From an uncultured bacterium (GTDB taxonomy: Bacteria > Patescibacteriota > Minisyncoccia > Moranbacterales > GWC2-37-73): DNA of 64,000 nt. Shown piece by piece: positions 24,599 through 47,662 of this stretch. The stretch covers positions 819 through 64,818 of the forward strand of contig CAILTR010000055.1 of the NCBI GenBank assembly GCA_903837175.1, read 5' to 3'. The notes under the pieces are model-generated. The model was not told the DNA's origin, did not search any database, and worked only from the letters and a program-made list of their open reading frames with translations. The position numbers and the translations under genes are program-made. Numbering within the stretch: position 1 is the stretch's first letter; the number at the start of each line of letters is the position of its first letter.

Positions 24599-24602
24599 CA
24601 TA

Positions 24603-31476: not shown

Positions 31477-32421
31477 ATGATGATTTTTTCTAAAAATAAA
31501 ATTTTTAAGTTTTTACTGAAATTGACGGTGAGTCTTTTTTTTATTGTTTGGTTGGTGCTGAAAATAAAGTGGGGAGAGGTTTTAAATCATGCTTTGCAAA
31601 TTTCTTGGTGGCAAATAGTTTTATATGTAGCGGTGCTACTTTTAGGGATGGTAATCTCAGCCTATAAATGGGAAATGCTTGCCCGAGCCAAGGGCTTTAA
31701 TTTTCCGCTGAAAAAATATTTTCAACTATATTTAACCGGCACATTTTTAAATAACTTTTTCCCTTCTTTTATCGGGGGCGATACTTATCGGGCTTATCAA
31801 ATTGGCAAACCAGAACGAAAATATATCGCAGCAACCTCGACAGTCGTGATGGACCGCGTAACGGGCTTATTGGGTGCGATGATTTTATCGGTTTTTTTCG
31901 CGGTCTTAAATTGGCGCGTCGTAATAGAACATCGTCCACTGCTCCTTATCGCGGGGATTGCCTTGGCAGTTTTACTAGGCGTGCTAGCCACGAGCTTGGT
32001 GGTTAATCTGCCCTTCTGGAAATTGCTAGCTAAATTTACGCCGAAAAAGATTTTAGAAGTGATTAAAGATTTTGGACAATATCAGGGAAGTGTTGCCTTA
32101 AAAAAAGCTTTATGGCTCTCGGTCGGCTATGGGCTAGTTGGGCTGGCCTTAGTTAACTATGTGCTTTTTTCAGCGCTGGGTATTCAGCTAGGTTTGCTAA
32201 ATTATTTAACGGTTATCTTTTTAGTTAGTATTGTTTCTTCTATTCCAGTTAGCGTCAATAATATCGGAATTAAGGAATGGGCGTACGTAACCTTCTTTGG
32301 CTTTTTCGGAGTCAGCGCTTCGGCCGTCGTGACTATCGCAATTATCAGCCGAGTCCTCCAGATGTTAGTCAGTTTTGTAGCTTTGCCGATGTATTTAAAA
32401 AGCAAGGCAGAAAAAAATTAG
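31477..32421 (+). CDS. Flippase-like / lysylphosphatidylglycerol-synthase-TM-region family membrane protein (UPF0104).
   Basis: Eight TM helices and 'FFPSFIGGDTYRAYQ'. This family commonly partners with GT2 in glycosylation loci. Confidence 0.55.
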   Translation: MMIFSKNKIFKFLLKLTVSLFFIVWLVLKIKWGEVLNHALQISWWQIVLYVAVLLLGMVISAYKWEMLARAKGFNFPLKKYFQLYLTGTFLNNFFPSFIGGDTYRAYQIGKPERKYIAATSTVVMDRVTGLLGAMILSVFFAVLNWRVVIEHRPLLLIAGIALAVLLGVLATSLVVNLPFWKLLAKFTPKKILEVIKDFGQYQGSVALKKALWLSVGYGLVGLALVNYVLFSALGIQLGLLNYLTVIFLVSIVSSIPVSVNNIGIKEWAYVTFFGFFGVSASAVVTIAIISRVLQMLVSFVALPMYLKSKAEKN

Positions 32422-35085: not shown

Positions 35086-37194
35086 ATGCTACAAGAAAAA
35101 TTAGCTTCTTTTTTCGTTAAAATAAGCCAAAATGAAAAAGTATTGGTCAGATTTTTGCTGGGCATTTCAATTGTGGTTTATTTTGTTTTTGGTTTTTATC
35201 ATCTAGCAAATTTTATTTCAGCAGATGAGCATTTTTGGTTGCCTAATTCTGGTAGTGAGCGCATCCAAGATTATTGGAAGGCAATTTCTAAGCAGGACTG
35301 GAAAGATACGAAGATTAATGATAAGCCTGGAATAACTTTGGCATATACCTCGGGTATTGCCATGCTTTTTGAAAAAAATCCCGGGGGTCAATTGATTTCA
35401 AATGGTGGCACTGTCAAATTATTTAATCCTGAAATAACCAAACGGATTAATTTTCTTTATCGGCTTCCAATCCTTTTGATCAGTGGCTTTTTCTCCTTGT
35501 TCTTTTTCTGGATTATCAGAAAAATTACAAACAATCCATGGATGGCGTTGTTTTCGGCCATGGGAATTTTACTTTCTCCAGTTTTGTTGGGGATGTCCCA
35601 AATTGTAAATCCAGATTCTCTTTTTTGGCTTTTCGCTTCAGCTTCGATGTTTTCTTTCTTTGCTTTTTTACAACATGGTCAGAAAAAGCTAGCGATTTGG
35701 AGTTCAATTTTCCTGGGGTTGGGGTTGGCGAGTAAATACGTGAGTGTGATTTTGTTTCCATTTTTCTTTTTTATGATGGTTGTTTATTATTTCTTTGAGT
35801 TTTTTAGGTGGGATAATCGACAAAAAGATTTTGCAAAAATGGTAATTAGAAATAGTTTTTCTTATTTGGGGGTTTTATTTGGTGGAATGCTTATTTTTGC
35901 AATTCTGATGCCAGCTTCTTTTGTGGAGCCAAAAGTTTTCTACGAAGGTACAATTGGCTTTCCTGGGATGCAACCTATCTTTTGGACAGTGATGATTATT
36001 AATGCGATTTTAATTTTGGATGCTCGCTTCTTTGTTAGTGGCGGTTTTGTCTGGCTAATAAAAAGACTAAAGCCACTCGAGGAAATCCTGCCAAAAATAG
36101 TCTATGCTATTTTATTTGGAACGGTTTTCTTTGTGCTCACAAATTGGCTTTCGAGAAATAGTATTATTGATTTATCTGGCATCCCTTTTAACTTAAAGAG
36201 AAGTGATCTTTTCAGCGAGCTTCCTTATTTTAAAAGATTTATTATGGAGTTTGTTCCGTTGACGTTTGCGTTGACGCCAGTAGCCTTGTTTATGCTCATG
36301 TTTGCTTGGTTTAGGGGCTTTTTAAATCAAACAAAGATAAAAACATTCTCTTTCTTGTTGTCGATATTCTTCTTGATATTTATAGTGGCAGTTATCGAGC
36401 AGGGGCTGCTGATTACTGTTCGATATAGTATTATTTTGTTTCCACTCTCAATGATTATTGGCTCTATTTCCTTGGTGGAGTTCTTTTCTGACATTCGAGA
36501 AAAAAAACTTGATGCTAGGGGGCTCAAGGTTTTTGCATTTGGCTTTTCGCTAGTGCTTATCTTGTTTACTAGCTTGATAATTCAACAGTATTTTCTTAAT
36601 AGCATTTATAAGAATGCTTTCGTCGATAGAGTATATCGCAGTTGGTATGGTATATTGTTTATTTTAGTTGCTACAATAGCGCTTGTTTTTACTTTGCGTA
36701 AAGTTGCTATTAGGAAAAAAATTGCTGACGTCTCAATGGTTTGGATTTTTTCTTTGGTGGCTTTGCTTAATATTGTTAGTATTTCCTTGATAGCACCTTT
36801 TTATTTCAGTTATACTAATAATCTTTTGCCAAAAAATTATATTATTAGTGGTGCTTGGGGCTATGGGGGATATGAGGCTGCGCAATATATGAACAGCTTG
36901 CCAGAGGCAAAAAATCTAACTTTATGGGTGGATGCTTATGGGGTTTGTGAATTTTTTGTTGGTAAATGCATCCATAAAGCTAAAGTGGATACTCAAAAAT
37001 ATCCAATTGACTATTATTTCCAATCCTTGCAATCGACAATTGCTATTAATTTTCCCCATGCGATGGAAAAGAATTCCGTTTGGAGATTAGAGATTGATGG
37101 ACGAGAAAAAAGTTTCTTGAAAATCAGGCAATCAAAACCTCTCATTACTGGGCAATCGGTTCAGGGCGATGCTTCTTCGGTAGATGATAACTAA
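35086..37194 (+). CDS. GT-C fold integral-membrane glycosyltransferase (PMT/ArnT-like, GT39/GT83-type).
   Basis: 'FISADEHFW' DE-loop after TM1 and at least 12 TM helices. The conserved C-terminal 'ISGAWGYGGYEAAQYMNSLP...GVCEFFVGKC' is shared with the next gene. Confidence 0.6.
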   Translation: MLQEKLASFFVKISQNEKVLVRFLLGISIVVYFVFGFYHLANFISADEHFWLPNSGSERIQDYWKAISKQDWKDTKINDKPGITLAYTSGIAMLFEKNPGGQLISNGGTVKLFNPEITKRINFLYRLPILLISGFFSLFFFWIIRKITNNPWMALFSAMGILLSPVLLGMSQIVNPDSLFWLFASASMFSFFAFLQHGQKKLAIWSSIFLGLGLASKYVSVILFPFFFFMMVVYYFFEFFRWDNRQKDFAKMVIRNSFSYLGVLFGGMLIFAILMPASFVEPKVFYEGTIGFPGMQPIFWTVMIINAILILDARFFVSGGFVWLIKRLKPLEEILPKIVYAILFGTVFFVLTNWLSRNSIIDLSGIPFNLKRSDLFSELPYFKRFIMEFVPLTFALTPVALFMLMFAWFRGFLNQTKIKTFSFLLSIFFLIFIVAVIEQGLLITVRYSIILFPLSMIIGSISLVEFFSDIREKKLDARGLKVFAFGFSLVLILFTSLIIQQYFLNSIYKNAFVDRVYRSWYGILFILVATIALVFTLRKVAIRKKIADVSMVWIFSLVALLNIVSISLIAPFYFSYTNNLLPKNYIISGAWGYGGYEAAQYMNSLPEAKNLTLWVDAYGVCEFFVGKCIHKAKVDTQKYPIDYYFQSLQSTIAINFPHAMEKNSVWRLEIDGREKSFLKIRQSKPLITGQSVQGDASSVDDN

Positions 37195-37229
37195 GCTCTT
37201 AAAGTATGAGCTAAACAAGAACTAAAAAT

Positions 37230-39044
37230 ATGAATACTATTGCCTCATATCTGAAAAGACCAGCATTCTTACTAAGCATCCCCCTGCTTTTGTATTTCGT
37301 TTTTTCCGTTCATCATTTGACGAAATTTGAAACGGCGGATGAGCATTTTTGGTTTAATGATCCTGCTCATGACAGAATCCATCAATATTGGACTGCCGTT
37401 TCTCAGCATAATTGGATTGCAACTAGAATTAATGATAAACCAGGAATTTCTTTGGTTTTTATTTCAGGTGCGGGTCTTCTTTTTGAGAGAGCTATTTTAA
37501 ACGGAGGCCAAGTCAATGTTCAAAACGTTGAGCGGCTTAATTTTGTTTTTCGCTTTCCTCAGGTTTTTTTTACTGCGTTGGCCGCAATCTATTTTTTTTG
37601 GGCCCTACGGAGAATAACAAAAAAGGATTTCCTTGCGCTTTTAGCTGTTAGTTTTATCTTGCTCAGTCCTATTTTAATTGGGATTTCCCAGATTGTTAAT
37701 CCTGATTCAATGCTTTGGATTTTTTCATTTGCAACTGTGTTGGCGTTCTTTCTTTATCTGCAAGAAGAGAAAAAAATTCATTTGTTTTCAGCTGCAATCT
37801 TTTTTGGAATGGCACTTCTGAGCAAATATGCCGCACTTATGCTAGTGCCATTTTTTCTAGCAATGATCGGTTTCTTTTTGATTTTTGAAGGAACTAACTG
37901 GGATAGGGTTACACTTAAAAAGAAAATTTTTAAATTCTCAATAGCCTATTTTAGTCTTATTTTTGGAGGTTTCTTGTTGTTCTCAATCCTGATGCCTGCC
38001 GTATTAGTAGATCCCATGCTTGCCTATAAGAGCACGATAGGGTTTAAGGGAATGCAATATATTTTTTGGCCATTAATTTTTCTGAATTCTCTACTGCTGC
38101 TTGATTCTGCCTTGAGTGAGAGTCGGTTTGCAGTTTTTTTAATAAAAAAGAGTAATAAGCTCAAAAGAGTATTGCCAAAAATTCTGTATGTATTTTTAAG
38201 TGGCATGTTTTTGCTTGTTTTGCTGAATTGGTCAGTCGGCAAAAATTTTATGAATGTTTTGAGTGTAGCCTTTGATTCAGCGGAAGGATCGAAATATCAG
38301 CATGCTTCCTTGTTCGATCAATTAATGCTCCAATTTAAGCCGATTGTTTTTTCGCTCACCCCACTTGTCCTTGCTAGTTTGCTTTTCCTTTGGCTGAAAG
38401 CGATTTTTAGAAAAATTGAAAATGAGCTGTTAGTGTTCTTATTCTCATTGTTTGTTTTTATTTTTTATGTGGCGGTGATGAGACAGGGGCTGCTTGTTAC
38501 TATTCGCTATGCTATAATTTTATACCCAGTTTTATTTGCGCTGGCAGCATTTGGAATAGCAGAGTTATTTTTATCTGTGAAGAAGTTTACTTTCCCAAAG
38601 ACTATAATTCTTATGGTTATTGTTGGAGTTTCAATAGTTAGCCTTTGGCAAAGCAAGCCGTTTTATTTTAATTATACAAATAGCTTGATGCCAAAAAATA
38701 GCGTCATCACTGGTGCCTGGGGTTATGGTGGTTATGAAGCTGCTCAATATCTCAATAGTCTGCCTGGCGCTGAAAACCTAGTTGTTTGGTCTGATTATTA
38801 TGGCGTTTGTCCATTTTTTGTTGGTAAATGTATGAAAGCTTATGCGCTAAGCGATTATGCCAAGAAAAATTCTTTGGAATCAATTAATTATGCGGTGGCA
38901 ACGCGCAGAGGCAAAAAGCAAAATATAAATATGTGGAAAAAATTTGATCATTATGATATTAAAAAAGCTTGGGCCTTATTTATTGACGGACGGCAGGCAA
39001 ACTTTGTAGAAATTTACAAGAATGGGGGACCCGTTGAAGATTAG
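37230..39044 (+). CDS. GT-C fold glycosyltransferase, tandem paralog of 35086..37194.
   Basis: 'FETADEHFWF' and 'ITGAWGYGGYEAAQYLNSLPGAENL...GVCPFFVGKC'. Confidence 0.6.
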   Translation: MNTIASYLKRPAFLLSIPLLLYFVFSVHHLTKFETADEHFWFNDPAHDRIHQYWTAVSQHNWIATRINDKPGISLVFISGAGLLFERAILNGGQVNVQNVERLNFVFRFPQVFFTALAAIYFFWALRRITKKDFLALLAVSFILLSPILIGISQIVNPDSMLWIFSFATVLAFFLYLQEEKKIHLFSAAIFFGMALLSKYAALMLVPFFLAMIGFFLIFEGTNWDRVTLKKKIFKFSIAYFSLIFGGFLLFSILMPAVLVDPMLAYKSTIGFKGMQYIFWPLIFLNSLLLLDSALSESRFAVFLIKKSNKLKRVLPKILYVFLSGMFLLVLLNWSVGKNFMNVLSVAFDSAEGSKYQHASLFDQLMLQFKPIVFSLTPLVLASLLFLWLKAIFRKIENELLVFLFSLFVFIFYVAVMRQGLLVTIRYAIILYPVLFALAAFGIAELFLSVKKFTFPKTIILMVIVGVSIVSLWQSKPFYFNYTNSLMPKNSVITGAWGYGGYEAAQYLNSLPGAENLVVWSDYYGVCPFFVGKCMKAYALSDYAKKNSLESINYAVATRRGKKQNINMWKKFDHYDIKKAWALFIDGRQANFVEIYKNGGPVED

Positions 39045-39096
39045 GGGGCGTAATGAATTTATAGAATGAATAATTATTTTTTGTGACTAAAAATAT

Positions 39097-40659
39097 ATGC
39101 AAAAAAACCTACAATCATTTAGGAAATACTTTCTGCGAAATAAATTGCGCTTCAATATGATTATTTTGCTTGCGATTATTATCTTGGGTGGAGTGCTACG
39201 GATGTATGATCTTGGAAAAAATTCTTTTATTGCTGATGAGTATTTGGATATGAATTCAGCTTATGCATACCGAATGACACATGTTTGGCAAGCCTGGGAT
39301 TTTAATTTTGGCAAGCCAAATACAGCAGATGTTAATCAGGCAAGGGATGTGAGAGCTTGGATGTATAAATGGCAAGTTGCGCAGGTTTTCAAGCTGCTCC
39401 CCCCAACGGAAGAAATGGCGCGGTTAGTGAGCGTGTTTTGGGGCTTGGTTAGTATTGCTTTAATATATGGAGTTGCATTCTCTTTTACGAAAAAACGTCA
39501 AATTGGGTTGCTAGCCGCTTTTTTGTTTGCGATAAGTGCGATGGGCATTATGTTTGATAGAAAATTGAGGATGTATGCGATGTTTTATCCAATGTATTTG
39601 GCATTGTCCTGGACTTTGTTTATGGCCTATGAGAAAGCGTATGAAGGCAAGAATAAGCTTGCAAGGAAAATCTGGGAATATTGTAGTGTGAATATCCTTT
39701 ATATAATCCCAACCTTAATCCTCGGGTATGTTAGTTTAGAATTGCAGCTTCTGACTGTAAACATCGCGGCAGCCTTTTTTGGCTTTGTGCTTGTTCAGGC
39801 TGTTCTGCAATGGAAAAAGGAACGGAAAATAACGGCTAATAAATATAGTATTTCAACTCTGCTGATAATTTTTGTTTCGGCTTTTGCAATTAAATTTCTC
39901 CCAGGTATTACTGGAATTTTCGTGACATCGATAAAGTTCTTCATTAATAATGGTGGATATTTTGAAAAAATTCTTTCAGATTATAATAATTGGATGCTGG
40001 GAGTTTTATTTTTTATTGTCGGGGGATATTTTTTGTATCAAAAGGAAGGGAAAAAGAAAGAAACTATTTGGCTCTTGACTTCTATTCTTGTTCCTCTTCT
40101 TATGGCGGCTTTCATGTGGAAGAGAACCCAAGGTATCCAGTATGTTTTTTTCTTGCAATCATTTTTGATTATCTTGGTCGCAACGGGAATATATGCAGTC
40201 GCAGTGTTTTTTGAGAAACATCTTTTAAGCATTTCGAAAAAAGCATATTTGGTAACAATCGTACTGGCTTTATTGCTCCTTCCAAATTACGCTTATTTTT
40301 CAGGTGAGAATAATACTTATCACAGAACAGATGTAGGTGATTATCGCAAAGTTTTTTTGTATGTCAAAAAGAATTTCAAGCCTGGCGACGTGATCGTTAC
40401 CAGAAATTTTAGAAATTATTATCTTTCTGGAATGCACGCCAAAGTCTTTGATTTCGGAGGAGAATCGGCCGTGAATGATTTTTCAGTTGATCAGCTCAGG
40501 CAAGTTGTGGAGCAAAATAATAGCGGCTGGGTAGTACTTTTTGATAATGACACTTTGTTTTTAACTAAAGACGCCAAACTATATCTTGAAAGTAATCTTT
40601 CCAAGACCGACAATGCTGCGGTCAGAGGTCAGGCTACGGTTTATTTTTGGCGAAGGTGA
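39097..40659 (+). CDS. GT-C fold glycosyltransferase (ArnT/PMT-like).
   Basis: 'SFIADEYLD' loop motif and multi-TM topology. Confidence 0.55.
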   Translation: MQKNLQSFRKYFLRNKLRFNMIILLAIIILGGVLRMYDLGKNSFIADEYLDMNSAYAYRMTHVWQAWDFNFGKPNTADVNQARDVRAWMYKWQVAQVFKLLPPTEEMARLVSVFWGLVSIALIYGVAFSFTKKRQIGLLAAFLFAISAMGIMFDRKLRMYAMFYPMYLALSWTLFMAYEKAYEGKNKLARKIWEYCSVNILYIIPTLILGYVSLELQLLTVNIAAAFFGFVLVQAVLQWKKERKITANKYSISTLLIIFVSAFAIKFLPGITGIFVTSIKFFINNGGYFEKILSDYNNWMLGVLFFIVGGYFLYQKEGKKKETIWLLTSILVPLLMAAFMWKRTQGIQYVFFLQSFLIILVATGIYAVAVFFEKHLLSISKKAYLVTIVLALLLLPNYAYFSGENNTYHRTDVGDYRKVFLYVKKNFKPGDVIVTRNFRNYYLSGMHAKVFDFGGESAVNDFSVDQLRQVVEQNNSGWVVLFDNDTLFLTKDAKLYLESNLSKTDNAAVRGQATVYFWRR

Positions 40660-40688
40660 GGTTTTTAGAGATTTACTAAAAATGAACA

Positions 40689-42317
40689 ATGAAAAAAATT
40701 TATAATTTTGTATTGAAAAATAGAATTGTTTTAGTCCTAAATGTCATTTTGGCAATGGGAATTTTTGTGCGGGTTTACAACTTTCATGATTGGCTTAGGT
40801 TCCACAAGGACGAGGCGCGTGATGCTTCTATCATAAGGGACGTTATTTCGAATGGTCATGCGTTGCCTCTACTCGGTCCAGTTGTTGGCACGACTGATTT
40901 TAAACTTGGTCCAATCTTCTATTATTTTCAATATGTTTCTGCGAAAATATTTGGCCTTGCTCCGGATGTGTTGGCCTATCCGGATTTGTTTTTTTCAATT
41001 TTAAGTATTCCACTTCTGTATTTTCTGCTAAAAAGATTTTTTTCAAAAAATATTTCATTATTACTAATGGCTTTGTATGCTGTTGATTTTTTTGCTATCA
41101 GATATGCTAGGTTTGCTTGGAATCCTAATTCGCAGCCATTCTTTTTAATGCTTTTTCTATATGCTTTTCTGGAAATTGTTTCAGCAAAGACTGATAAATC
41201 CAAATGGTTTTGGGCGACAGTCGTTGGCATTTCTCTAGGTGTGGGCGTTCAATTGCATATTTTGTTTTTGTTGTCGATACCGGTTATGACACTTATCTTT
41301 TTCTTCTATTTAAGAAGGGAAGGTAAGTTGAATTGGAAGATGTTATTTTGGATAGTATCAATTGCCTTTTTTCTCAATTTGCCAGTGGTTTTTTCGGAAA
41401 TAGGAAGTGGTGGCAAGAATACTCTGGAATTTATCAAGGTTGTTTTTTATGAGCCGCCACAGCTTGGAACCCCAATAACTACCATGCAATGCTTGTCTCA
41501 TGTTAATACCTATATTCTGACTTCAATTGGGGAGGATAATTACTGCAAGACTATTACGAAGAATGACGGTAAAATTCTGGTTGATTTTTTCACGAACGGT
41601 TTTAAAAATATCCTTACAGCTTCCATTGTGTTTTTTAGCTTACTCCTTACTTTAGGCGGGTATGTTTTATTAGGGTATTTCATCAAGCGAGAAGCTAATT
41701 TTGAAAAGAAAATTTTTTTGCATTTTATTTCAATTTTTTTTATAGTCAGTTTTATTGTTTGCTTGTTAGTTCTTAATCCGATGACTATGCGGTACTTTGT
41801 CATCGTTGAAATAGTTCCGTTTATATTCTTAGGATTGTGGCTCAAATACATTTTAGGATTCAAGAGGTTTTGGAAATATTTGATTGCCTTTGTTCTTTTT
41901 TTGTTTTTGTTCGGAATGAATTTCCAATCCATTGCTGCAGAAGTTGAATATCTCAATGGCAGAGCCCCGGAAATGCCTTATGGGGTTATAAATCTTACCT
42001 TAGGAGAGGCTGAACTTTTTTCTAATTTTATTTTCGAGCATGCTAATCATTCCAAACCAGTTTATCTTAATGGGCGAAATGTCAGCCTGGAGAATGTGCT
42101 GGCTGCTTTGGATTATCTCCCAGCTTCTTCACAGCTAAAGATTTCTTCAATTAAGAAGCAACAGACAACGGATGCTACTTTCTTTGCTTTTGGTCCAATC
42201 TCGAACCCTGATTTGGAAAAAAATCTCACTGAAGATGAAAAAAACATTTATCAGCTCAAAAACTATGCTTCCAATGGAAGATATTTTATCATGCAACTTG
42301 AGCGTAAGCAAAAATAA
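40689..42317 (+). CDS. GT-C fold glycosyltransferase (ArnT-like).
   Basis: 'FHKDEARDASI' after TM1 and a multi-TM N-terminal half. Confidence 0.55.
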   Translation: MKKIYNFVLKNRIVLVLNVILAMGIFVRVYNFHDWLRFHKDEARDASIIRDVISNGHALPLLGPVVGTTDFKLGPIFYYFQYVSAKIFGLAPDVLAYPDLFFSILSIPLLYFLLKRFFSKNISLLLMALYAVDFFAIRYARFAWNPNSQPFFLMLFLYAFLEIVSAKTDKSKWFWATVVGISLGVGVQLHILFLLSIPVMTLIFFFYLRREGKLNWKMLFWIVSIAFFLNLPVVFSEIGSGGKNTLEFIKVVFYEPPQLGTPITTMQCLSHVNTYILTSIGEDNYCKTITKNDGKILVDFFTNGFKNILTASIVFFSLLLTLGGYVLLGYFIKREANFEKKIFLHFISIFFIVSFIVCLLVLNPMTMRYFVIVEIVPFIFLGLWLKYILGFKRFWKYLIAFVLFLFLFGMNFQSIAAEVEYLNGRAPEMPYGVINLTLGEAELFSNFIFEHANHSKPVYLNGRNVSLENVLAALDYLPASSQLKISSIKKQQTTDATFFAFGPISNPDLEKNLTEDEKNIYQLKNYASNGRYFIMQLERKQK

Positions 42318-42415
42318 TAATTTTAATAATAATTAATTTCAAAAAATTGAATAAAATAAATCTCAATAATTTTTCAAAAAAGCTACTAAAATTTAAATAC
42401 CTCAAAAGGTCGATA

Positions 42416-43753
42416 ATGTTTCTCCTGTTACTTGTAGTTATTTTTTTCGCGTTGAGCTTTAGGAGTTATCCATTTAAGCTTATTTATGAAAATAAACAAA
42501 GGTATCTTTTAATAATGTCTCAAATAAAAAAACCTCAAATCCCAGAAAGGCAGTGTAATATTTTGGATTATGGCGCGATTGGAGATGGTAAAACAAAAAA
42601 TACCGAAGCTATTAAACAGGCAATAGGTGATTGCTCGCAAAAAGGTGGTGGGAAGGTTATTTTTCCTGCGGGAAAGTGGCTCACTGGTCAGATTCATTTT
42701 TTAGATAACATTGAACTTTCACTAGTAAAAGACGCCGAAATTAATTTTAGCGATGACCGAAATGATTATTTGCCGTTGGTTTTTTCACGCTATCAAGGCA
42801 TGGAATACTTTAATTATTCTCCGCTCATTTATGCTAATAATTGTCGCAACATTGCAATAACGGGGGAAGGAAAACTTATCGGAAACGGAGTAATGTGGAG
42901 AGTTTGGAGCGATAAGCCACAAGATCCCAATGCGGGAGCAGAGCTTTTGGCTATGGTCAAAGCAGGCGTGCCAGCAGAGCAAAGAATTTTCGGTGAGCAG
43001 TATGGTCTTAGGCCATCCTTCATCCAGTTTATTAATTGCAAAAATATTTTAGTGCAGGGAATTTCAATTGAGGACGGTCCAATGTGGACTATTCATCCTA
43101 TATATTCTGAAAATATTATCATTGATAATGTTAAAATAGATACCTACGGAATAAACACTGATGGTGTGGACGTTGATTCTTCGAAAAATGTGCTTATTAA
43201 AAATTCTGATATTTCTGCGGGTGATGATGCAATTTCAATAAAAGCAGGTCTGGGGGAAGATGGTCTGAGAATAAATAAACCAGCTGAAAATGTCATAATT
43301 AAAAATTGTAAAATGAGAGATGGGCATAGTGGAATTTCAATCGGAAGTGAACTCACTGGTGGGGTAAAGAATATCATTATGCAAAATAACACTTTTGATT
43401 CAACAGAGGATGGTTTCAAGATAAAGTCTTCGCCTGGTCGAGGTGGAATTGTTGAAAATATTTGGCTAGATGGTTCTAATATGTTAGTTAATAGCCATGC
43501 TATTTCTTTGGATATGTTTTATGGATCTAATATTTTGACAAACGGAGAGCAGGAATCAATCTTTAGAAATATTCTTATTTCTAAAACTAATATAACGAAA
43601 GCACAGAATGCTTTTAGCGTAAATTCTTTAGACAAGGATCATATTTATAATATAACCGTGACAAATTTCAAAGCAGTCTCTGGGAGAGGCATCCAGATTG
43701 AAAAAGCGGGGAGAATTGACTTTAATATGCTTAATATAAAGTCAAAACGCTAG
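42416..43753 (+). CDS. Glycoside hydrolase family 28 (polygalacturonase-like right-handed beta-helix), secreted.
   Basis: 'ILDYGAIGDGKTKNTEAIKQAI', 'SAGDDAISIKAG', 'DGHSGISIGSE' and 'GFKIKS' are GH28 catalytic motifs. A signal-anchor precedes them. Confidence 0.75.
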   Translation: MFLLLLVVIFFALSFRSYPFKLIYENKQRYLLIMSQIKKPQIPERQCNILDYGAIGDGKTKNTEAIKQAIGDCSQKGGGKVIFPAGKWLTGQIHFLDNIELSLVKDAEINFSDDRNDYLPLVFSRYQGMEYFNYSPLIYANNCRNIAITGEGKLIGNGVMWRVWSDKPQDPNAGAELLAMVKAGVPAEQRIFGEQYGLRPSFIQFINCKNILVQGISIEDGPMWTIHPIYSENIIIDNVKIDTYGINTDGVDVDSSKNVLIKNSDISAGDDAISIKAGLGEDGLRINKPAENVIIKNCKMRDGHSGISIGSELTGGVKNIIMQNNTFDSTEDGFKIKSSPGRGGIVENIWLDGSNMLVNSHAISLDMFYGSNILTNGEQESIFRNILISKTNITKAQNAFSVNSLDKDHIYNITVTNFKAVSGRGIQIEKAGRIDFNMLNIKSKR

Positions 43754-43765
43754 GAGTGCCGTTGA

Positions 43766-45583
43766 TTATGGGAGTTCCTCTTCTGAAACACTTGATTTAA
43801 TTGTTTCATCTGGAGTTGATTGTGGCGAAAATGGCTTGCTGAGCTTATCCCAGGTCATTAGTTGAGATATTTGTTCTTTTTGAATAGTTATTTGCTTTGT
43901 ATCCTCAGCTTGTCTGGTAGCTGTTATCCTTTCCCTTCTTGGGTTTAAATAAAAAACAGTCAGTGAACCCAGCTCTTTTTTTTCAACAATCAAAAAATCA
44001 TCGGAAATTTTTTTGAGCTGATTTTTATTGATTTGGTTTGTGCGATATATGGAAAAATAGTTAGCTTGCTCATAGACTGAATTTTTTTCAACAGGAATTA
44101 AGAATGGGGTATAATATTTAATTCCTTTTTGATTTAAAAAATACCAAAAAGAGGGTTCGTATTCATGATCACAAGCTAAATATACAGGATATGTGTTATC
44201 GATGTATTTTGAGGCTATGTAATTTGTGACTAGCTGTTCTTGCTGAAGGGTCACTCTTGAATTAGTCGGAAAAACATCTTTCATTTTAGCTGAACTTTCC
44301 GTGGTAGTAGCATTCCTTAAGCCATTAAGGTAATTAAAATCTTTAATTATGTTTGATACAGAAAAGGATGCAATTATTATAATAAAAAAAGATAACCTTT
44401 GTTTATTTTTTTCTGGCTTGATGTTTTCAAGGATTAGCCCAAGTAAAATGAAGGCAAGTGGACTGACTACTAGAAAAAATCTTGGAAAAAGAATATTTGA
44501 AGAAAATATAGCATAGAAATAGAGGAATGAAAAAACAAGCCAAAGTGATGAAAGAATAAGAAAATCTTTACGCTGACCAGCTGGTTCTTTTTTCGTTTTT
44601 CGTATCAAAAGAAAAACTCCAACTAAAAAATAAAGCAGGGCAGTAATTCGAACTGGGAGACGAGAAAAACAGGTTGTTTTGCAAGTCATACCTAGCGTAT
44701 ATCCATCTGGAGTTGATACCCCATTGATTTGATCGTTCCCACTTAGAATGAGAAAATATTCATAGGTGTGGTATTGAGTAATAAGAAAGGCTTTTTCTGC
44801 AAAGTTCTTTCGGTGGGATTCACCTTTGCCTATTTTTTCAACAAAAAATTTAGAATTTTCACCGCTAGTTTTGATTTCATTGGCAATCATTGGGGAATAT
44901 AGCAGAATTACTATGGCAATTGCCAGGCCCCAAGTTTTGAAGTTAAACCTCGGTCGCTTGATAAACAGGAACGAGATTACAATTGCTGGAATAGTGAAAA
45001 AAGCATTGAAATGAATTTGGGTGCTAATGCTAGCCATTAAAACCATTATTAAAAACCAGATTCGCGGGTGCTTTTCATTTTTTGAAACACACCTGAGTAG
45101 GGCATAGAAAGTAAGCAGAATTAAAAATGGTAGCACATTGGGGCTCCAGGAAAAACGAGCATAGAGAATAAGATAAAGCGAAACAGCAAAGACCGATAGT
45201 AATCCAGAAGAAATTAGTACGGAAAAATATCTTCTAATGAATACATAAAAAAGAGGAAGAGTTAAAATGGAAAAAATGAGTACAGTCATGGAATGACCTG
45301 CGGGCGTGTTACCAAAGAGCAGGGCGCTGACGTATTCCATGTAGTAAAAAGCAGGCCCAAGGCGGAGTGCGCGACCTCCTCCAGCCGTTGGCCCAAGCAG
45401 GGGAAGGTTGCTAATTCCGCCAGTCACCGCATTAGAAACAATGTGATAGTCCCAGGTTTGATCAACTTCAAAATGAAGCCATTTGTCATGATTATAGGCA
45501 CGAAATGCTATTCCGATGGCACAAATCGTAATAAGAAAAAGCAATTCCCATTTATGTGGAGCTATTTTTTTAAAAAAAGTCAT
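43766..45583 (-). CDS. GT-C fold glycosyltransferase (ArnT-like), paralog of 40689..42317.
   Basis: 'LPLLGPTAGGGRALRLGPAFYYMEYVSALLFG' resembles 'LPLLGPVVGTTDFKLGPIFYYFQYVSAKIFG' in the 40689 protein. Confidence 0.55.
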   Translation of the reverse strand: MTFFKKIAPHKWELLFLITICAIGIAFRAYNHDKWLHFEVDQTWDYHIVSNAVTGGISNLPLLGPTAGGGRALRLGPAFYYMEYVSALLFGNTPAGHSMTVLIFSILTLPLFYVFIRRYFSVLISSGLLSVFAVSLYLILYARFSWSPNVLPFLILLTFYALLRCVSKNEKHPRIWFLIMVLMASISTQIHFNAFFTIPAIVISFLFIKRPRFNFKTWGLAIAIVILLYSPMIANEIKTSGENSKFFVEKIGKGESHRKNFAEKAFLITQYHTYEYFLILSGNDQINGVSTPDGYTLGMTCKTTCFSRLPVRITALLYFLVGVFLLIRKTKKEPAGQRKDFLILSSLWLVFSFLYFYAIFSSNILFPRFFLVVSPLAFILLGLILENIKPEKNKQRLSFFIIIIASFSVSNIIKDFNYLNGLRNATTTESSAKMKDVFPTNSRVTLQQEQLVTNYIASKYIDNTYPVYLACDHEYEPSFWYFLNQKGIKYYTPFLIPVEKNSVYEQANYFSIYRTNQINKNQLKKISDDFLIVEKKELGSLTVFYLNPRRERITATRQAEDTKQITIQKEQISQLMTWDKLSKPFSPQSTPDETIKSSVSEEELP

Positions 45584-45729: not shown

Positions 45730-47199
45730 TTATTTTTTCTTAAAACCTGGAATCATATTTTTAAATATCGCAAAATCTTCCTGAGTCAGTTCTTTTAGTA
45801 AATAAAGAATACTGAAATATACCAGGAACAAAAATGCACCGGAAAAAATGAATAGAATTTTCGTGCTAGGTAGGAGAAAGGAAAGAAAATAAATCATGAC
45901 TGCTGAAAATATTATTTTCAAAGCACTTGAAATTTTTAACTGGACGGAAAAGGTTTTTTTGAGAAAATAGAAAAGTGCCATGGTGACAAAGCTTGCTGTG
46001 ATGCTAGTTGCAATGCCTGCACCTATGAGACCGTAAGCCTTAACTAGGATGACGTTAAGTGTTGTATTCAATAGCATTCCAAAAAAGGCGATTTTTAGGG
46101 GTAATTTAACAAGACCGGCGCCTTGAAAAGCAAAACTCATGACGTAAAAAAGCGTCAGTAGACCCACACCAAAAGCCATGAATTGGAGAGCGTTAGCGCC
46201 ACCGGCATATTGCGCACCAAAAAAGAAAATCATAAGTGGTTGAGCATAGCTAATAATTAGGGCAATGGTTGGAATAAGCAAGATAGTCATCATGCGAAGG
46301 GCTATGCTGATTGCAGCAGTTGTTTTTTCTTTGTGTTCGTTGGCAGTTGAATGTGAAATAACAGGTAAAAGTACAATAGTGAGAGCATAGAAAAGATAAT
46401 TTGGAATTTGGGAAATAGTAAAAGCTCCGTTAAAAAGGCCAGTGGCATAATCATCACGCAGAATTGATTTTACCACAAAAAGATCAAGTGAAATCATGGT
46501 TTGGTATAAAACCAAAAAACCCGTTATCGGCAGAGCATAGGAAAGCAATTTCTTAATAGGGAAAGCTTCATTTCTGGTAGCTTTAACTGTCGGAAAGCGT
46601 TTGACATATATAAGCCGATCAATAACAAGTGCGATAAGAAATATAGCCAGCGATACATAGATGTAACCCGTGATGAAACCTTCTAGCGACAAAAAGTATC
46701 CTAGGCCCACAATTATAGCGACTCGCAGTACCGACCTTAATGATTTCAAAATAGACTGCATGTTAAATTGATGGATTCCGGTATAGTAGTAGAAATAAAA
46801 AGAATCGGCAGCGTAGCAGGGAATTATGAAAGCAGAAATTCTGAGTAACTTTTCTAGGGATGGATCATGTAGCATAATTGCGATGATGGGTGCTCCGAAA
46901 AAAAATACTGCAGTTACCGCGCCCATTAAAATTAATTGGGCAAGCGCTGCCTTTTTTTTAATGACAGAAATAAGTCCTGGTTTTTTAGTCAGGTCTGCAC
47001 TCAGGAATTTACTCATCGCAATTGGAATGCCATTGCCGATTAGGGAAGCAATTAAGATCGTCAGAGTGATAATAATGCCATAGACGCCGTAATCAGCCGG
47101 CCCAAGGATGCGTCCAGCGGCGCTGTGGACAATGAAGCCAGAAATATAAAAAAGAATTTCGGCTAGTCCTAACCAAAAAATGTATGCGGTTACGGCCAT
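45730..47199 (-). CDS. wzx: Wzx-like oligosaccharide flippase (MOP superfamily).
   Basis: ~14 TM helices and an N-terminal 'GRILGPADYGVYGIIITL' polysaccharide-biosynthesis-protein signature. Confidence 0.75.
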   Translation of the reverse strand: MAVTAYIFWLGLAEILFYISGFIVHSAAGRILGPADYGVYGIIITLTILIASLIGNGIPIAMSKFLSADLTKKPGLISVIKKKAALAQLILMGAVTAVFFFGAPIIAIMLHDPSLEKLLRISAFIIPCYAADSFYFYYYTGIHQFNMQSILKSLRSVLRVAIIVGLGYFLSLEGFITGYIYVSLAIFLIALVIDRLIYVKRFPTVKATRNEAFPIKKLLSYALPITGFLVLYQTMISLDLFVVKSILRDDYATGLFNGAFTISQIPNYLFYALTIVLLPVISHSTANEHKEKTTAAISIALRMMTILLIPTIALIISYAQPLMIFFFGAQYAGGANALQFMAFGVGLLTLFYVMSFAFQGAGLVKLPLKIAFFGMLLNTTLNVILVKAYGLIGAGIATSITASFVTMALFYFLKKTFSVQLKISSALKIIFSAVMIYFLSFLLPSTKILFIFSGAFLFLVYFSILYLLKELTQEDFAIFKNMIPGFKKK

Positions 47200-47287: not shown

Positions 47288-47662
47288 TTATAAATTTTTA
47301 TAAATTTCTTTAGAACTTTTCGGGGTTGAAATTTTTAGATTAATCTTTTTTCCAGCGATATCCTGGAGAGCCTTAACTGTGATTTTCTTTTTCTCTCCTA
47401 AGCCAGCCGTGGTATCTCCTTGGGAAAGGGGATTTTTATCGACTGAAATTTCCCAATGAAAATTCTTTTCGCTACTATGATTTTCAATGATAAAGGAAAG
47501 GTCATTTGTTCGCGGGTCAGCAAAATAAATACTCCACCAGGACTTACCGTAGTTATAATCTTGCTGTTGCTGCTGCGTATAAGCTAAATAGAAAAGACAG
47601 CCTAAAAAGAAAAGGGCAAGCGCGAGGATAACTTTTTTAGCGTAGGTCATGGATGTTTGCAT
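47288..47662 (-). CDS. Hypothetical signal-anchored protein.
   Basis: 124 aa with an N-terminal TM. It is translationally adjacent to the upstream membrane-protein gene. Confidence 0.4.
   Translation of the reverse strand: MQTSMTYAKKVILALALFFLGCLFYLAYTQQQQQDYNYGKSWWSIYFADPRTNDLSFIIENHSSEKNFHWEISVDKNPLSQGDTTAGLGEKKKITVKALQDIAGKKINLKISTPKSSKEIYKNL

What the first reader, a model, noticed from the sequence alone, without database searches (positions are those of the whole stretch)
35086..45583. Expansion of GT-C (PMT/ArnT-like) membrane glycosyltransferases, including a tandem duplicated pair, with a secreted GH28 hydrolase in their midst
Five genes encode 520-700-aa polytopic proteins with the GT-C first-loop acidic motif after TM1: 35086, 37230, 39097, 40689 and 43766-. 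The motifs are 'ADEHFW', 'ADEYLD' and 'HKDEAR'.

35086 and 37230 are tandem paralogs sharing a distinctive C-terminal 'GAWGYGGYEAAQY.NSLP...GVC.FFVGKC' module. Three further membrane proteins (16275, 47663, possibly 17756) carry related loops.

A bona fide GH28 (polygalacturonase-fold) secreted hydrolase (42416-43753) is embedded between the GT-C genes. That is an odd partner for glycan synthesis. It may be a glycan-trimming or remodelling activity, or a depolymerase acting on a host or partner-cell polymer.

The locus also holds Wzx, two Wzy_C-like ligases, LCP and many GT2/GT4 enzymes. The overall picture is elaborate protein or lipid-linked glycan decoration, typical of episymbiotic small-genome bacteria.
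Basis: partly seen in the sequence, partly recalled or inferred. Interest (0 to 1): 0.5.

Follow-up and report, generated by a model that had tools for sequence, protein, structure and literature searches.

The report
GT-C glycosyltransferase cluster with partner GH28
A candidate-phylum (Moraniibacteriota-like) bacterium carries a conserved surface-sugar gene cluster in which several membrane glycosyltransferases are always next to, and in some relatives fused to, a membrane-anchored pectinase-type enzyme, which suggests it both builds and trims an acidic sugar coat outside the cell.

Summary
The core observation holds. Five 520-702-aa polytopic proteins (35086, 37230, 39097, 40689, 43766-) are GT-C glycosyltransferases in three families.
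- Family B (40689/43766) is PMT_2/ArnT-like.
- Family C (39097) has an AF2 model that matches only GT-C structures.

The gene at 42347-43753 is a real GH28, closest to the Thermotoga exo-polygalacturonase (E 4e-93), and all catalytic residues are present.

- The A pair is an old duplication (39% identity, both orthologs kept in relatives).
- 43766 has D-Q, not D-E.
- The GH28 starts upstream of 42416 and looks membrane-anchored rather than freely secreted.
- 17756 has no support as a GT-C.

New result: the GH28 is not an oddity. In 14 of 18 distinct related loci fetched through it, it lies within 37 nt of a GT-C gene (GH28 identity down to about 40%). Four distinct database proteins are in-frame family-A GT-C–GH28 fusions.

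The cluster also holds four polyprenyl-phosphate-sugar synthase GT2s, two sugar 6-dehydrogenases and flippase-like proteins.

Best reading (inferred): the enzymes add alpha-uronic acid, probably GalA, outside the cell from lipid-linked donors, and a cognate exo-hydrolase trims the product. It is a new variant of known kinds, of moderate interest.

The parts
35086..37194 (+). Family A GT-C glycosyltransferase, long form (702 aa), PMT-like; ADEHFW motif after TM1; C-terminal Cys-pair domain
   Evidence: PF13231 35.5 bits and PF02366 34.9 bits, both above cut-off. 39.6% identical to 37230. About 700-aa orthologs in L002, L004, L005 and L009.
37230..39044 (+). Family A GT-C glycosyltransferase, short form (604 aa); D37-E38 motif; C-terminal alpha/beta domain (about 480-604) with C527/C534
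39097..40659 (+). Family C GT-C glycosyltransferase (520 aa); ADEYLD motif (D47-E48 invariant)
   Evidence: Own PMT_2 hit is sub-threshold (22.4 bits). 21 of 56 homologs hit PMT_2 and 14 of 56 hit PMT, and no other family is hit. AF2 pLDDT 94.9. Foldseek: ArnT 5e-8, STT3, AglB.
40689..42317 (+). Family B GT-C glycosyltransferase (542 aa), PMT_2/ArnT-like; HKDEARD motif
   Evidence: PF13231 35.2 bits, above cut-off; TIGR03663 (Agl23) 35.9 bits, below cut-off. hhalign A vs B probability 93.6%. Motif conservation.
42347..43753 (+). GH28 exo-polygalacturonase-like hydrolase (468 aa) with an N-terminal K/R-rich segment plus one hydrophobic helix (signal anchor). Catalytic D272, D293, D294, H327, K360. 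Alternative start ATG 42416.
   Evidence: PF00295 96.9 bits. 3JUR E 3.7e-93, 5OLP 1.5e-83. Anchor conserved in close homologs. Catalytic residues present in 124 of 124 homologs.
43766..45583 (-). Family B GT-C glycosyltransferase (605 aa), paralog of 40689; VDQTWD motif
   Evidence: PF13231 25.8 bits (cut-off 26.1). 30% identity to 40689, E 1.6e-48. Orthologs sit next to the GH28 in L002, L004, L009, L012, L013 and L015.
45730..47199 (-). Wzx/MurJ-superfamily flippase (489 aa)
   Evidence: PF01943 72.7 bits, PF13440, PF03023. Conserved in L002-L010.
47288..47662 (-). Small conserved protein (124 aa): one N-terminal TM helix plus a domain of about 95 aa; function unknown
   Evidence: No Pfam hit. 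A 117-125-aa homolog lies next to the DUF6541 gene in L002, L004, L007 and L009.
47663..49633 (-). DUF6541-type polytopic membrane protein (656 aa), possibly GT-C-like
   Evidence: Homologs are annotated PF20176 DUF6541. Its own hit is only DUF1616 at 19 bits. hhalign vs family B gives probability 21%, with the TM helix and Asp in register.
49646..50764 (-). GT4 glycosyltransferase
   Evidence: PF00534 113.5 bits. Conserved in L002, L004, L005 and L009.
51065..52045 (-). GT2, polyprenyl-phosphate-sugar synthase type (AglJ / Dol-P-hexose transferase-like)
   Evidence: PF00535. TIGR04182 122.6 bits, PpgS 70.5 bits, both below cut-off.
52416..53681 (-). Nucleotide-sugar 6-dehydrogenase (closest to UDP-ManNAc / UDP-GlcNAc dehydrogenases)
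   Evidence: TIGR03026 404.9 bits, above cut-off; UDP-ManNAc DH 300.9 bits, TviB 232.7 bits.
26127..27068 (+). GT2, polyprenyl-phosphate-sugar synthase type (PgfS/GtrB/ArnC-like, full length)
   Evidence: PgfS model 220.7 bits, ArnC model 119.4 bits, both below equivalog cut-offs. PF00535.
27138..28076 (+). GT2, polyprenyl-phosphate-sugar synthase type (ArnC-like), directly upstream of UDP-glucose dehydrogenase
   Evidence: ArnC model 171.7 bits, PgfS 154.6 bits. The module of this GT2, UGDH, GT4 and LPG_synthase_TM is conserved in L005/6, L015 and L017, and without UGDH in L019; by Pfam calls also in L026.
28205..29581 (+). UDP-glucose 6-dehydrogenase (makes UDP-glucuronic acid)
   Evidence: TuaD model 466.8 bits, TIGR03026 451.6 bits. 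Pfam UDPG_MGDP_dh N, central and C domains.
30128..31300 (+). GT4 glycosyltransferase
   Evidence: PF00534 155.9 bits. Conserved next to LPG_synthase_TM in most related loci.
31432..32421 (+). LPG_synthase_TM (MprF-flippase-like) membrane protein; candidate flippase for lipid-linked sugar
   Evidence: PF03706 125.4 bits. Present in nearly every related locus, including the minimal fusion loci L023 and L025.
22605..24664 (-). GalE-type UDP-hexose 4-epimerase (23615-24664) followed by a PpgS-like polyprenyl-phosphate-sugar synthase GT2 (22605-23288)
   Evidence: GalE TIGR01179 440.5 bits, above cut-off 262; PpgS model 135.5 bits.
16266..17714 (+). DUF2142 polytopic membrane protein with PDEHAHYW after TM1; probable further GT-C-like enzyme
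   Evidence: PF09913 194.2 bits. Motif seen in the sequence.

Best explanation
The region is the core of a conserved cell-surface glycan cluster of a Moraniibacteriota-like (Patescibacteria) bacterium.

SHOWN
- Five paralogous GT-C-fold membrane glycosyltransferases in three families (A: 35086, 37230; B: 40689, 43766; C: 39097) surround a catalytically intact GH28 of the exo-polygalacturonase type. The GH28 carries an N-terminal signal anchor.
- The GH28 gene abuts a GT-C gene in most related loci, and in some lineages it is fused in frame to the C-terminus of a family-A GT-C.
- The same neighbourhood encodes four GtrB/ArnC/PpgS-type GT2s (polyprenyl-phosphate-sugar synthases). Three of them lie directly beside a nucleotide-sugar enzyme on the same strand (GalE or a sugar 6-dehydrogenase); 26127 reaches UGDH only through 27138.
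- It also encodes flippase-type proteins (LPG_synthase_TM and a Wzx-like protein).

INFERRED MECHANISM
1. In the cytoplasm, UDP-sugars, including uronic acids made by the two dehydrogenases, are loaded onto polyprenyl phosphate by the GT2s.
2. The lipid-linked monosaccharides are flipped across the membrane.
3. On the outer face, each GT-C paralog transfers its sugar, with inversion, onto a growing surface glycan. The acceptor could be a wall polymer, a lipid or a Ser/Thr-rich protein stalk.
4. Family A is proposed to add alpha-linked uronic acid, most likely alpha-D-GalA.
5. The membrane-tethered GH28 removes terminal residues of exactly that kind. It would act as a built-in trimming, length-control or remodelling enzyme, as hydrolases encoded in other exopolysaccharide operons do.
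For: GT-C identity
- Pfam PMT/PMT_2 hits.
- AF2 models with pLDDT 93.8 and 94.9.
- Foldseek hits at E <= 1e-3 are exclusively GT-C.
- Invariant Asp-Glu after TM1 in families A and C, and an invariant Asp in B.
- A vs B hhalign probability 93.6%.
- 21 of 56 family-C homologs hit PMT_2, and no family other than PMT and PMT_2 is hit.

GH28
- 3JUR exo-poly-alpha-D-galacturonosidase, E 3.7e-93.
- D272, D293, D294 and K360 are present in 124 of 124 homologs, including the fused domains.
- The K/R-rich segment plus hydrophobic helix is conserved in close homologs and absent from the cytoplasmic PelB type.

Functional link
- In 14 of 18 distinct related loci fetched through their GH28, the gene lies within 37 nt of, or overlaps, a GT-C gene. 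This holds down to about 40% GH28 identity and through different gene orders.
- Of the four loci without a neighbouring GT-C, three are labelled non-Patescibacteria (KSB1, and Tepidisphaeraceae twice) and one is L011.
- There are four distinct in-frame family-A GT-C–GH28 fusion proteins: P0241 (the 1084-aa L019 ORF), P0242, P0243 and P0249. P0249 is only 40% identical to P0241 and was read on four contigs, among them an NCBI genome assembly and a Logan run assembly.
- The fused GH28 lacks its own anchor. This places it on the same side as the GT-C C-terminal domain, which carries a near-invariant Cys pair.

Donor machinery
- Four polyprenyl-P-sugar-synthase-type GT2s, UGDH, a second sugar 6-dehydrogenase and GalE.
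- LPG_synthase_TM and Wzx.
- The ArnC-like GT2, UGDH, GT4 and LPG_synthase_TM module is conserved.

Stereochemistry and precedent
- Established knowledge: UDP-alpha-D-sugar goes to polyprenyl-P-beta-D-sugar (inverting GT2), then to an alpha-D-glycoside (inverting GT-C). GH28 enzymes hydrolyse alpha-D-galacturonosides.
- RgtD/RgtF are alpha-GalA transferases that use a bactoprenyl-phosphate-GalA donor made by RgtE (PMC7663294).
Against: - No dedicated UDP-glucuronate 4-epimerase lies in the window. The only epimerase scores as a standard GalE (440 bits, against 62 bits for the TviC-type uronate epimerase model). The GalA donor is therefore unproven.
- The sugar specificity of no GT-C here can be read from sequence.
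- The GH28 falls well below every NCBIfam equivalog cut-off (best 337 vs 800 bits), so its exact substrate is unknown.
- A complete related genome keeps three family-A GT-Cs and the UGDH/GT2/flippase module but has no GH28 within 10 kb (L026). The hydrolase is therefore dispensable.
- Related loci share ancestry, so the synteny count is not a set of independent events.
- Topology was inferred from fold homology, charge distribution, the Cys pair and the fusion. It was not computed with a dedicated predictor or from model coordinates.
Confidence: 0.5

Rival explanations
1. The GH28 is a nutritional or partner-directed depolymerase. It would digest a foreign galacturonan-type polymer, such as plant or algal pectin or a host cell's acidic capsule, at the cell surface. 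It would sit in the glycan island only because surface functions cluster together, and the GT-C enzymes would decorate the cell's own envelope independently.
For: - The closest characterised relatives are pectin-degrading exo-polygalacturonases (3JUR, 2UVE).
- Homologs in Planctomycetota, KSB1 and Tepidisphaeraceae occur without GT-C neighbours.
- The GH28 is absent from one otherwise complete cluster (L026), as expected for an accessory foraging gene.
- The membrane anchor puts the enzyme at the contact surface.
Against: - There are recurrent in-frame fusions to a family-A GT-C in at least four protein clusters.
- Adjacency within 37 nt is maintained through rearranged gene orders down to about 40% identity.
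- No galacturonate uptake or catabolism genes are seen in the 64-kb window.
Confidence: 0.2
2. The GT-C paralogs are protein O-glycosyltransferases (PMT / Pgf / GtrB-PgtC2-like). They would glycosylate Ser/Thr-rich extracellular stalks of surface proteins, such as those encoded at 109-2964 and 3090-4637, and the GH28 would edit those O-glycans. This differs from the best explanation mainly in the acceptor.
For: - The family-A motif DEHFW resembles the PMT loop-1 DE motif (own knowledge).
- A PgfS-like GT2 and a GalE-type epimerase lie in the window, as in the streptococcal Pgf system that glycosylates Ser/Thr-rich disordered regions (PMC12041528).
- Both large surface proteins end in S/T/G/P-rich stalks before a C-terminal TM anchor.
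Against: - There is no MIR domain, so family A is not a canonical PMT.
- The island also carries Wzx, two Wzy_C proteins and an LCP ligase, which point to a wall-linked polysaccharide.
Confidence: 0.3
3. The GH28 module works non-hydrolytically in this context. It could be a glycan-binding or chain-measuring domain, or a transglycosylase, that hands the acceptor to the GT-C active site.
For: - The fusion places it directly after the GT-C C-terminal domain.
- The Arg of the RIK substrate-binding motif is Lys in the window protein and varies (K/Q/H/S/N) in some anchored homologs.
Against: - All three catalytic Asp residues and the Lys are kept in 124 of 124 homologs, and His in 108 of 124. The fused domains keep the full set, including Arg. 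That pattern is expected for an active hydrolase.
- GH28 enzymes invert configuration, which makes transglycosylation unlikely (established knowledge).
Confidence: 0.08
4. The grouping is incidental: ordinary, functionally unrelated membrane proteins and a hydrolase that happen to be neighbours, or mis-annotated transporters.
For: - Two of the five GT-C calls are below the Pfam gathering score.
- Hydrophobic proteins give spurious weak profile hits.
Against: - The acidic-loop residues are invariant.
- Synteny is conserved and the two genes are fused in some lineages.
Confidence: 0.02

Closest known systems
Three-component lipid-carrier glycosylation systems (GtrA/GtrB/Gtr-type; ArnC/ArnE-F/ArnT; streptococcal GtrB–PgtC2 and Pgf)
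   Same: - A GT2 makes a polyprenyl-phosphate-monosaccharide, a small or flippase-like membrane protein moves it across, and a GT-C enzyme transfers the sugar on the outer face.
- All three component types are present here: PgfS/ArnC/PpgS-like GT2s, LPG_synthase_TM and Wzx, and GT-C paralogs.
- A GalE-type epimerase next to a GT2 mirrors PgfE/PgfS (PMC12041528).
   Different: - There are five to seven GT-C paralogs and four synthases in one island, rather than one of each.
- No ArnT, GtrB or PgfS equivalog threshold is met.
- A glycoside hydrolase is an integral, sometimes fused, member, which these systems lack.
Rhizobial RgtA-F galacturonosyl transfer system (RgtE bactoprenyl-P-GalA synthase plus ArnT-like GT-C GalA transferases)
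   Same: It uses a polyprenyl-phosphate-uronic acid donor and GT-C transferases to give alpha-GalA products on the outer face (PMC7663294). Here a UDP-glucose dehydrogenase sits beside an ArnC-like GT2, and the partner hydrolase belongs to a family specific for alpha-GalA linkages.
   Different: - The rhizobial acceptor is LPS core or lipid A of a diderm, whereas this organism has a Gram-positive-type toolkit (LCP ligase).
- No UDP-GlcA 4-epimerase was found in the window.
- The Rgt system has no hydrolase partner.
- Homology to Rgt proteins was not tested directly.
Protein O-mannosyltransferases (PMT, GT39)
   Same: - Family A passes the PF02366 gathering score.
- It has an invariant D-E in the loop after TM1.
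   Different: - There is no MIR domain.
- Instead there is a family-specific C-terminal alpha/beta domain with a conserved Cys pair and a WGYG motif.
- Identity to PMTs is only 12-15%.
- The donor sugar is probably not mannose.
Thermotoga maritima exo-polygalacturonase PelB (PDB 3JUR) and other GH28 exo-enzymes
   Same: The catalytic domain aligns over its full length with E 3.7e-93 and identical catalytic motifs (NTD, GDD, GH, xK).
   Different: - PelB-type enzymes lack the N-terminal anchor and work on imported pectin oligomers.
- This clade is membrane-anchored or fused to a GT-C and embedded in a biosynthetic cluster.
- The Arg of RIK is Lys here.
Hydrolases or lyases encoded inside exopolysaccharide biosynthesis operons (BcsZ, PslG, AlgL, PelA, PgaB); GT–GH multidomain synthases such as cyclic beta-1,2-glucan synthase
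   Same: The logic is the same: an enzyme that degrades the pathway's own polymer is co-encoded, and sometimes fused, with the synthase for trimming, length control or release (own knowledge, not tested here).
   Different: - Those systems use cytoplasmic-face GT-A/GT-B synthases and other hydrolase families.
- I found no described case of a GT-C enzyme partnered or fused with GH28.

Membership tests
GT-C glycosyltransferase superfamily (fold level) | Polytopic membrane protein with the GT-C transmembrane fold | tested here: met
   - Family C (39097): 25 Foldseek hits at E <= 1e-3, all GT-C.
- Family B has no model. It rests on PMT_2 35.2 bits and hhalign 93.6% to family A.
GT-C glycosyltransferase superfamily (fold level) | Conserved acidic residue (Asp, often D-E or DxD) in the first loop after TM1 | tested here: met
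   D37-E38 are invariant in 121 family-A sequences. D47-E48 are invariant in 56 family-C sequences. The first Asp is invariant in 26 family-B sequences, with E/Q/T/G at the second position.
GT-C glycosyltransferase superfamily (fold level) | The acidic loop faces the extracytoplasmic side | tested here: inconclusive
   No topology predictor or model coordinates were available. The indirect evidence agrees:
- The N-terminus before TM1 is K/R-rich.
- The fold is homologous to enzymes whose loop 1 is external.
- The C-terminal domain has a near-invariant Cys pair.
- That domain is fused directly to a GH28 whose free form has an N-in signal anchor.
GT-C glycosyltransferase superfamily (fold level) | Uses a polyprenyl-phosphate-linked sugar donor | not testable with these tools
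   Context only: four polyprenyl-P-sugar-synthase-type GT2s and flippase-like proteins lie in the same island.
PMT (GT39) protein O-mannosyltransferases | PF02366 above the gathering score | tested here: met
   35086 scores 34.9 bits and 37230 scores 48.3 bits against a cut-off of 22.7. This is not met by 39097, 40689 or 43766.
PMT (GT39) protein O-mannosyltransferases | Luminal or periplasmic MIR domain in loop 5 | tested here: not met
   None of the five proteins has a MIR Pfam hit. The soluble domain is C-terminal instead. I therefore do not file them as canonical PMTs.
ArnT (GT83) lipid A aminoarabinose transferases | Match to a curated ArnT model, and a lipid A acceptor | tested here: not met
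   NCBIfam gives no ArnT-family hit for any of the five at E <= 0.1. Only the generic PMT_2 domain is hit. 40689 has an ArnT-like DEARDA motif, which is resemblance only. The organism shows no LPS genes in the window.
GH28 glycoside hydrolases | PF00295 above the gathering score and a right-handed beta-helix catalytic domain homologous to solved GH28s | tested here: met
   96.9 bits against a cut-off of 22.9. 3JUR E 3.7e-93 over residues 56-447; 5OLP, 2UVE and 1BHE also match.
GH28 glycoside hydrolases | Catalytic Asp triad (NTD, GDD) plus the conserved His and Lys | tested here: met
   D272, D293, D294 and K360 are present in 124 of 124 aligned homologs, and H327 in 108 of 124. The window protein has all of them. 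The Arg of RIK is Lys358.
GH28 glycoside hydrolases | Specific activity class (exo-polygalacturonase, alpha-D-galacturonidase or rhamnogalacturonidase) | tested here: inconclusive
   The best NCBIfam equivalog is alpha-D-galacturonidase BT4155, at 337 bits against a cut-off of 800. All others are also below cut-off.
Operon-encoded self-polymer hydrolases (BcsZ / PslG / AlgL type; functional analogy) | The hydrolase is conserved within the biosynthetic cluster and acts on the cluster's own product | tested here: inconclusive
   Conservation and fusion are shown. Action on the cluster's own product cannot be tested in silico.

The most novel reading that the evidence does not exclude
Family-A GT-C enzymes and the GH28 form a physically coupled 'write and erase' machine on the outer face of the membrane. 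It would build and size an alpha-galacturonan-like (pectin-like) acidic polymer from lipid-linked GalA on the surface of ultra-small Patescibacteria. That would be a GT-C-dependent route to a homogalacturonan-type polymer. The hydrolase would control chain length or release, and possibly attachment to and detachment from the host cell.
Probability: 0.15. Interest if true: 0.75.

Novelty: new variant of a known kind. Interest (0 to 1): 0.5.

Why it matters
- The cell envelopes of Patescibacteria (candidate phyla radiation) are almost uncharacterised chemically, yet these cells depend on surface contact with hosts.
- This cluster gives a concrete prediction that can be tested. A uronic-acid, probably GalA, glycan would be assembled outside the cell by a set of GT-C paralogs from lipid-linked monosaccharides, with a dedicated GH28 that edits it.
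- The recurrent GT-C–GH28 fusion is, as far as I could find, an undescribed domain architecture.
- It also gives a soluble, easily expressed handle, the GH28 domain, for identifying the glycan that an otherwise intractable membrane enzyme family makes.
- It also corrects a likely systematic mis-annotation: in MAG surveys, GH28 genes in these genomes would be counted as 'pectin degradation' capacity.

Tried and rejected
- **Dedicated GalA pathway in the window.** The epimerase 23615 scores as a standard GalE (440 bits), not a uronate 4-epimerase. GalA remains an inference.
- **AF2 model of a GT-C–GH28 fusion.** Alignment A3 put the GH28 sequences onto the GT-C half, so the job was not submitted.
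- **Sequence search of GT-C proteins against PDB.** There were no hits for 37230 or 40689 at E <= 1. The family-C profile gave only marginal ArnT and Pmt2 hits (E 0.016 and 0.03). Fold comparison was needed.
- **hhalign among families built from locus ORFs.** Only A vs B was convincing. C, DUF6541, DUF2142 and 17756 gave probabilities of 21% or less. The first run timed out.
- **My hydropathy TM caller.** It split and overlapped helices, so I did not use it for topology counts.
- **Promoter and terminator scan of 32300-47400.** Counts equalled the shuffled expectation and were uninformative.
- **tRNA and Rfam scans of the window.** Nothing was found.
- **Literature searches** for Patescibacteria + polygalacturonase, CPR + GT-C, Patescibacteria + ArnT/GT39, and GT-C + GH28 + fusion. 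No relevant prior description was found.
- **17756 as a GT-C.** There was no Pfam hit even at E <= 1. The idea is rejected for lack of evidence, not disproved.
- **Recent tandem duplication of 35086/37230.** This is rejected. Identity is 39%, and separate orthologs of each are kept in loci whose GH28 is only 52% identical.

Full report
**1. What is in the sequence**

The first five genes are on the + strand with gaps of 35, 52, 29 and 29 nt, so they form a probable operon. 43766 converges on the GH28 with 12 nt between the stop codons. The window has no tRNA or Rfam hits, and its GC content is 32-44%.

**2. Are the membrane proteins GT-C enzymes?**

- Pfam gives only PMT (PF02366) and PMT_2 (PF13231) as meaningful hits. 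They are above the gathering score for 35086, 37230 and 40689, and just below it for 39097 and 43766.
- All-vs-all BLASTP resolves three families. Family A is 35086/37230 (39.6% identity, E 5e-108). Family B is 40689/43766 (30%, E 1.6e-48). Family C is 39097 alone.
- Family A: an alignment of 121 homologs shows invariant D37, E38 and W41 directly after TM1, plus R49, K70-P71-G72, N157-P158-D159, K199-Y200 and R426-Y427. The AF2 model is very confident (pLDDT 93.8, pTM 0.94).
- Family C: an exhaustive HMMER search found 502 relatives. Of 56 aligned members, 21 hit PMT_2 and 14 hit PMT, and nothing else is hit. D47-E48 are invariant. The AF2 model (pLDDT 94.9) matches only GT-C structures (ArnT 5e-8, AglB TMq 0.62).
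- Family B: it rests on PMT_2 (35.2 bits), hhalign to family A (probability 93.6%) and an ArnT-like DEARDA loop. Only the first Asp is invariant, and 43766 itself reads VDQ.

The GT-C call is therefore sound for all five. The outward orientation of the acidic loop is inferred, not computed (see the membership table).

**3. The tandem pair**

35086 and 37230 are old paralogs. Loci whose GH28 is only 52% identical still keep one ortholog of each, about 700-755 aa and about 605-647 aa. Many contigs carry both size classes. The C-terminal WGYGGYEAAQY...C...C module is conserved across the whole family. In the model it folds as an alpha/beta domain after the last TM helix. Its near-invariant Cys pair argues for an extracytoplasmic location.

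**4. The GH28**

- PF00295 scores 96.9 bits. The closest solved relative is the Thermotoga maritima exo-poly-alpha-D-galacturonosidase 3JUR (E 3.7e-93).
- The catalytic D272, D293, D294 and K360 are present in all 124 aligned homologs. The Arg of the RIK motif is Lys here.
- The gene caller on the source contig began the protein at 42515, which removes any signal. Against that, the close homologs all have a K/R-rich segment followed by a hydrophobic helix of about 20 residues, and this aligns with the translation upstream of 42416.
- A second pipeline called the 468-aa form (P0511). The cytoplasmic PelB type lacks this segment.
- I therefore take TTG 42347 as the start. I see no small-residue cleavage motif after the helix (ALSF/RS), so I read the protein as a membrane-anchored ectoenzyme. 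That step is inference.

**5. The key new result: the GH28 is a conserved, sometimes fused, partner of the GT-C genes**

- I fetched loci through GH28 homologs at 76, 69, 52 and 43% identity and from reference genomes.
- A phmmer survey with all the window cluster proteins and a distance tally show that in 14 of 18 distinct related loci the nearest GT-C gene lies within 37 nt of the GH28 or overlaps it. One to six GT-C genes lie within 6 kb, despite different gene orders and orientations.
- Of the four loci without GT-C neighbours, three are labelled non-Patescibacteria (KSB1, and Tepidisphaeraceae twice) and one is L011.
- In L019 the GH28 is the C-terminal domain of a 1084-aa ORF. Its first 568 residues are a complete family-A GT-C, with the DEHFW motif and the Cys module included.
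- A database search with this protein found three more fusion clusters: P0242, P0243 and P0249. P0249 is only 40% identical to P0241 and was read on four contigs, among them an NCBI genome assembly and a Logan run assembly. P0243 sits between two more family-A genes.
- The fused GH28 domains lack their own anchor but keep every catalytic residue.
- The closest relative of the GT-C half of P0241 (P0245, 68% identity) is unfused. It lies in a complete 1.29-Mb Moraniibacteriota genome whose cluster has no GH28 within 10 kb. Fusion or loss has therefore happened more than once, and the hydrolase is accessory rather than essential.

**6. The wider cluster**

- The conserved core also contains a Wzx/MurJ-type flippase (45730-47199-), a small anchored protein (47288-47662-), a DUF6541-type membrane protein (47663-49633-) and GT4 enzymes.
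- It further contains an LPG_synthase_TM (MprF-flippase-like) protein (31432-32421+), UDP-glucose 6-dehydrogenase (28205-29581+) and ArnC/PgfS-like GT2s (26127, 27138).
- NCBIfam identifies four GT2s of the polyprenyl-phosphate-sugar-synthase type. Three lie directly beside a nucleotide-sugar enzyme on the same strand: 22605 with GalE 23615, 27138 with UGDH 28205, and 51065 with a second sugar 6-dehydrogenase 52416; 26127 lies just upstream of 27138 in the UGDH group.
- Two Wzy_C proteins, an LCP ligase and further GTs follow downstream.
- The nearest named relatives are Candidatus Moraniibacteriota / Moranbacteria / Parcubacteria.

**7. Mechanism**

Shown: fold and motifs of the GT-Cs, an intact GH28 active site, the anchor, the conserved adjacency and fusion, and the presence of donor-synthesis and flippase-type genes.

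Inferred: UDP-sugars, two of them uronic acids, are transferred to polyprenyl phosphate, flipped, and used by the GT-C paralogs on the outer face. The chemistry is internally consistent. An inverting GT2 followed by an inverting GT-C yields alpha-D-glycosides, and GH28 enzymes hydrolyse alpha-D-galacturonosides. Rhizobial RgtD/F with RgtE provide a precedent for GT-C transfer of alpha-GalA from a bactoprenyl-phosphate donor (PMC7663294).

The weak point is the missing UDP-GlcA 4-epimerase: 23615 is a standard GalE.

The acceptor is open. The PMT-like character of family A and the streptococcal GtrB/PgtC2 and Pgf systems (PMC12041528) make Ser/Thr-rich stalks of the surface proteins at 109-4637 plausible. 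The Wzy_C and LCP genes point instead to a wall polymer.

**8. Comparison and novelty**

The parts are known kinds: GT-C transferases, GtrB/ArnC-type synthases, and a GH28 exo-enzyme. Hydrolases embedded in polysaccharide operons are a familiar theme (own knowledge). What I could not find described is a GT-C family that is systematically partnered, and recurrently fused, with a GH28. I rate it a new variant of a known kind, with interest 0.5.

**9. Caveats**

- The synteny counts are not phylogenetically independent.
- Some MAG labels ('uncultured Bdellovibrionales/Micavibrio') on loci carrying this cluster look wrong but were not checked.
- No model coordinates were available for explicit topology or active-site geometry.
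- Substrate identities are inferred.

Noticed in passing
window 32400-35000 (genes at about 32600-32820+, 32779-33273+, 33270-34835-): A restriction-modification-like island interrupts the glycan cluster between LPG_synthase_TM and the first GT-C. It holds an HTH_3 protein, a PD-(D/E)XK_5 endonuclease, and a 521-aa fusion of a complete LexA (DNA-binding domain plus S24 self-cleaving peptidase, TIGR00498 183.6 bits) to a C5 cytosine methyltransferase (PF00145 316 bits). In relatives L002, L004 and L009 the two flanking genes are about 70-80 nt apart. In phage records only the methylase half matches; 1 of 1700 records covers 80% or more. A methylase that could be cleaved in response to SOS is unusual.
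   Followed up: partly
[not shown]
   Followed up: no
window 47288-47662 (-): A 124-aa protein with one N-terminal TM helix and a domain of about 95 residues, with no Pfam family. A 117-125-aa homolog lies next to the DUF6541 gene in L002, L004, L007 and L009. It is a conserved unknown component of the cluster.
   Followed up: partly
window 17756-20107 (+): A 783-aa polytopic membrane protein with a C-terminal soluble domain of about 290 aa. It has no Pfam hit even at E <= 1 and no profile similarity to the GT-C families. It sits between DUF2142 (16266) and an EamA-like small membrane protein plus GT2 (20132-21320-).
   Followed up: partly
window 29709-30059 (+); L005 19674-20048, L006 17100-17474: A 116-aa '23S rRNA intervening-sequence protein' (a four-helix bundle; the homolog shows a weak bAvd hit) is conserved between UDP-glucose dehydrogenase and the GT4 gene, in the window and in a locus whose GH28 is only 52% identical. 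Its role in a glycan cluster is unexplained.
   Followed up: no
window 109-2964 (+) and 3090-4637 (+): Two large surface proteins share a near-identical internal segment of about 150 aa (GTLPEITINT...GAVGYRPAG...ILTYH.TSFG). Both end in a low-complexity stalk followed by a C-terminal TM anchor with a basic tail. The first also has Ig-like domains. They are candidate glycosylation acceptors.
   Followed up: no
L026 (CP175956.1 72204-94036), complete 1.29-Mb Moraniibacteriota genome: The orthologous cluster has three family-A GT-C genes plus LPG_synthase_TM, GT4, UGDH and GT2, but no GH28 within 10 kb. The middle GT-C is 68% identical to the GT-C half of fusion P0241. The GH28 domain has therefore been gained or lost between close relatives.
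   Followed up: partly
L010, L011, L015, L019 (records CAYTRS01, CAZABS01, CAZIBB01, CAZHQB01): These MAG contigs are labelled 'uncultured Bdellovibrionales' or 'uncultured Micavibrio sp.'. L010, L015 and L019 carry the same Moraniibacteriota-type GT-C/GH28/LPG_synthase_TM cluster. The taxonomic labels are probably wrong.
   Followed up: no
window 42347-42515: The gene call on the source contig starts the GH28 at 42515 and drops the membrane anchor. Surveys that rely on such calls would score this enzyme as cytoplasmic.
   Followed up: yes
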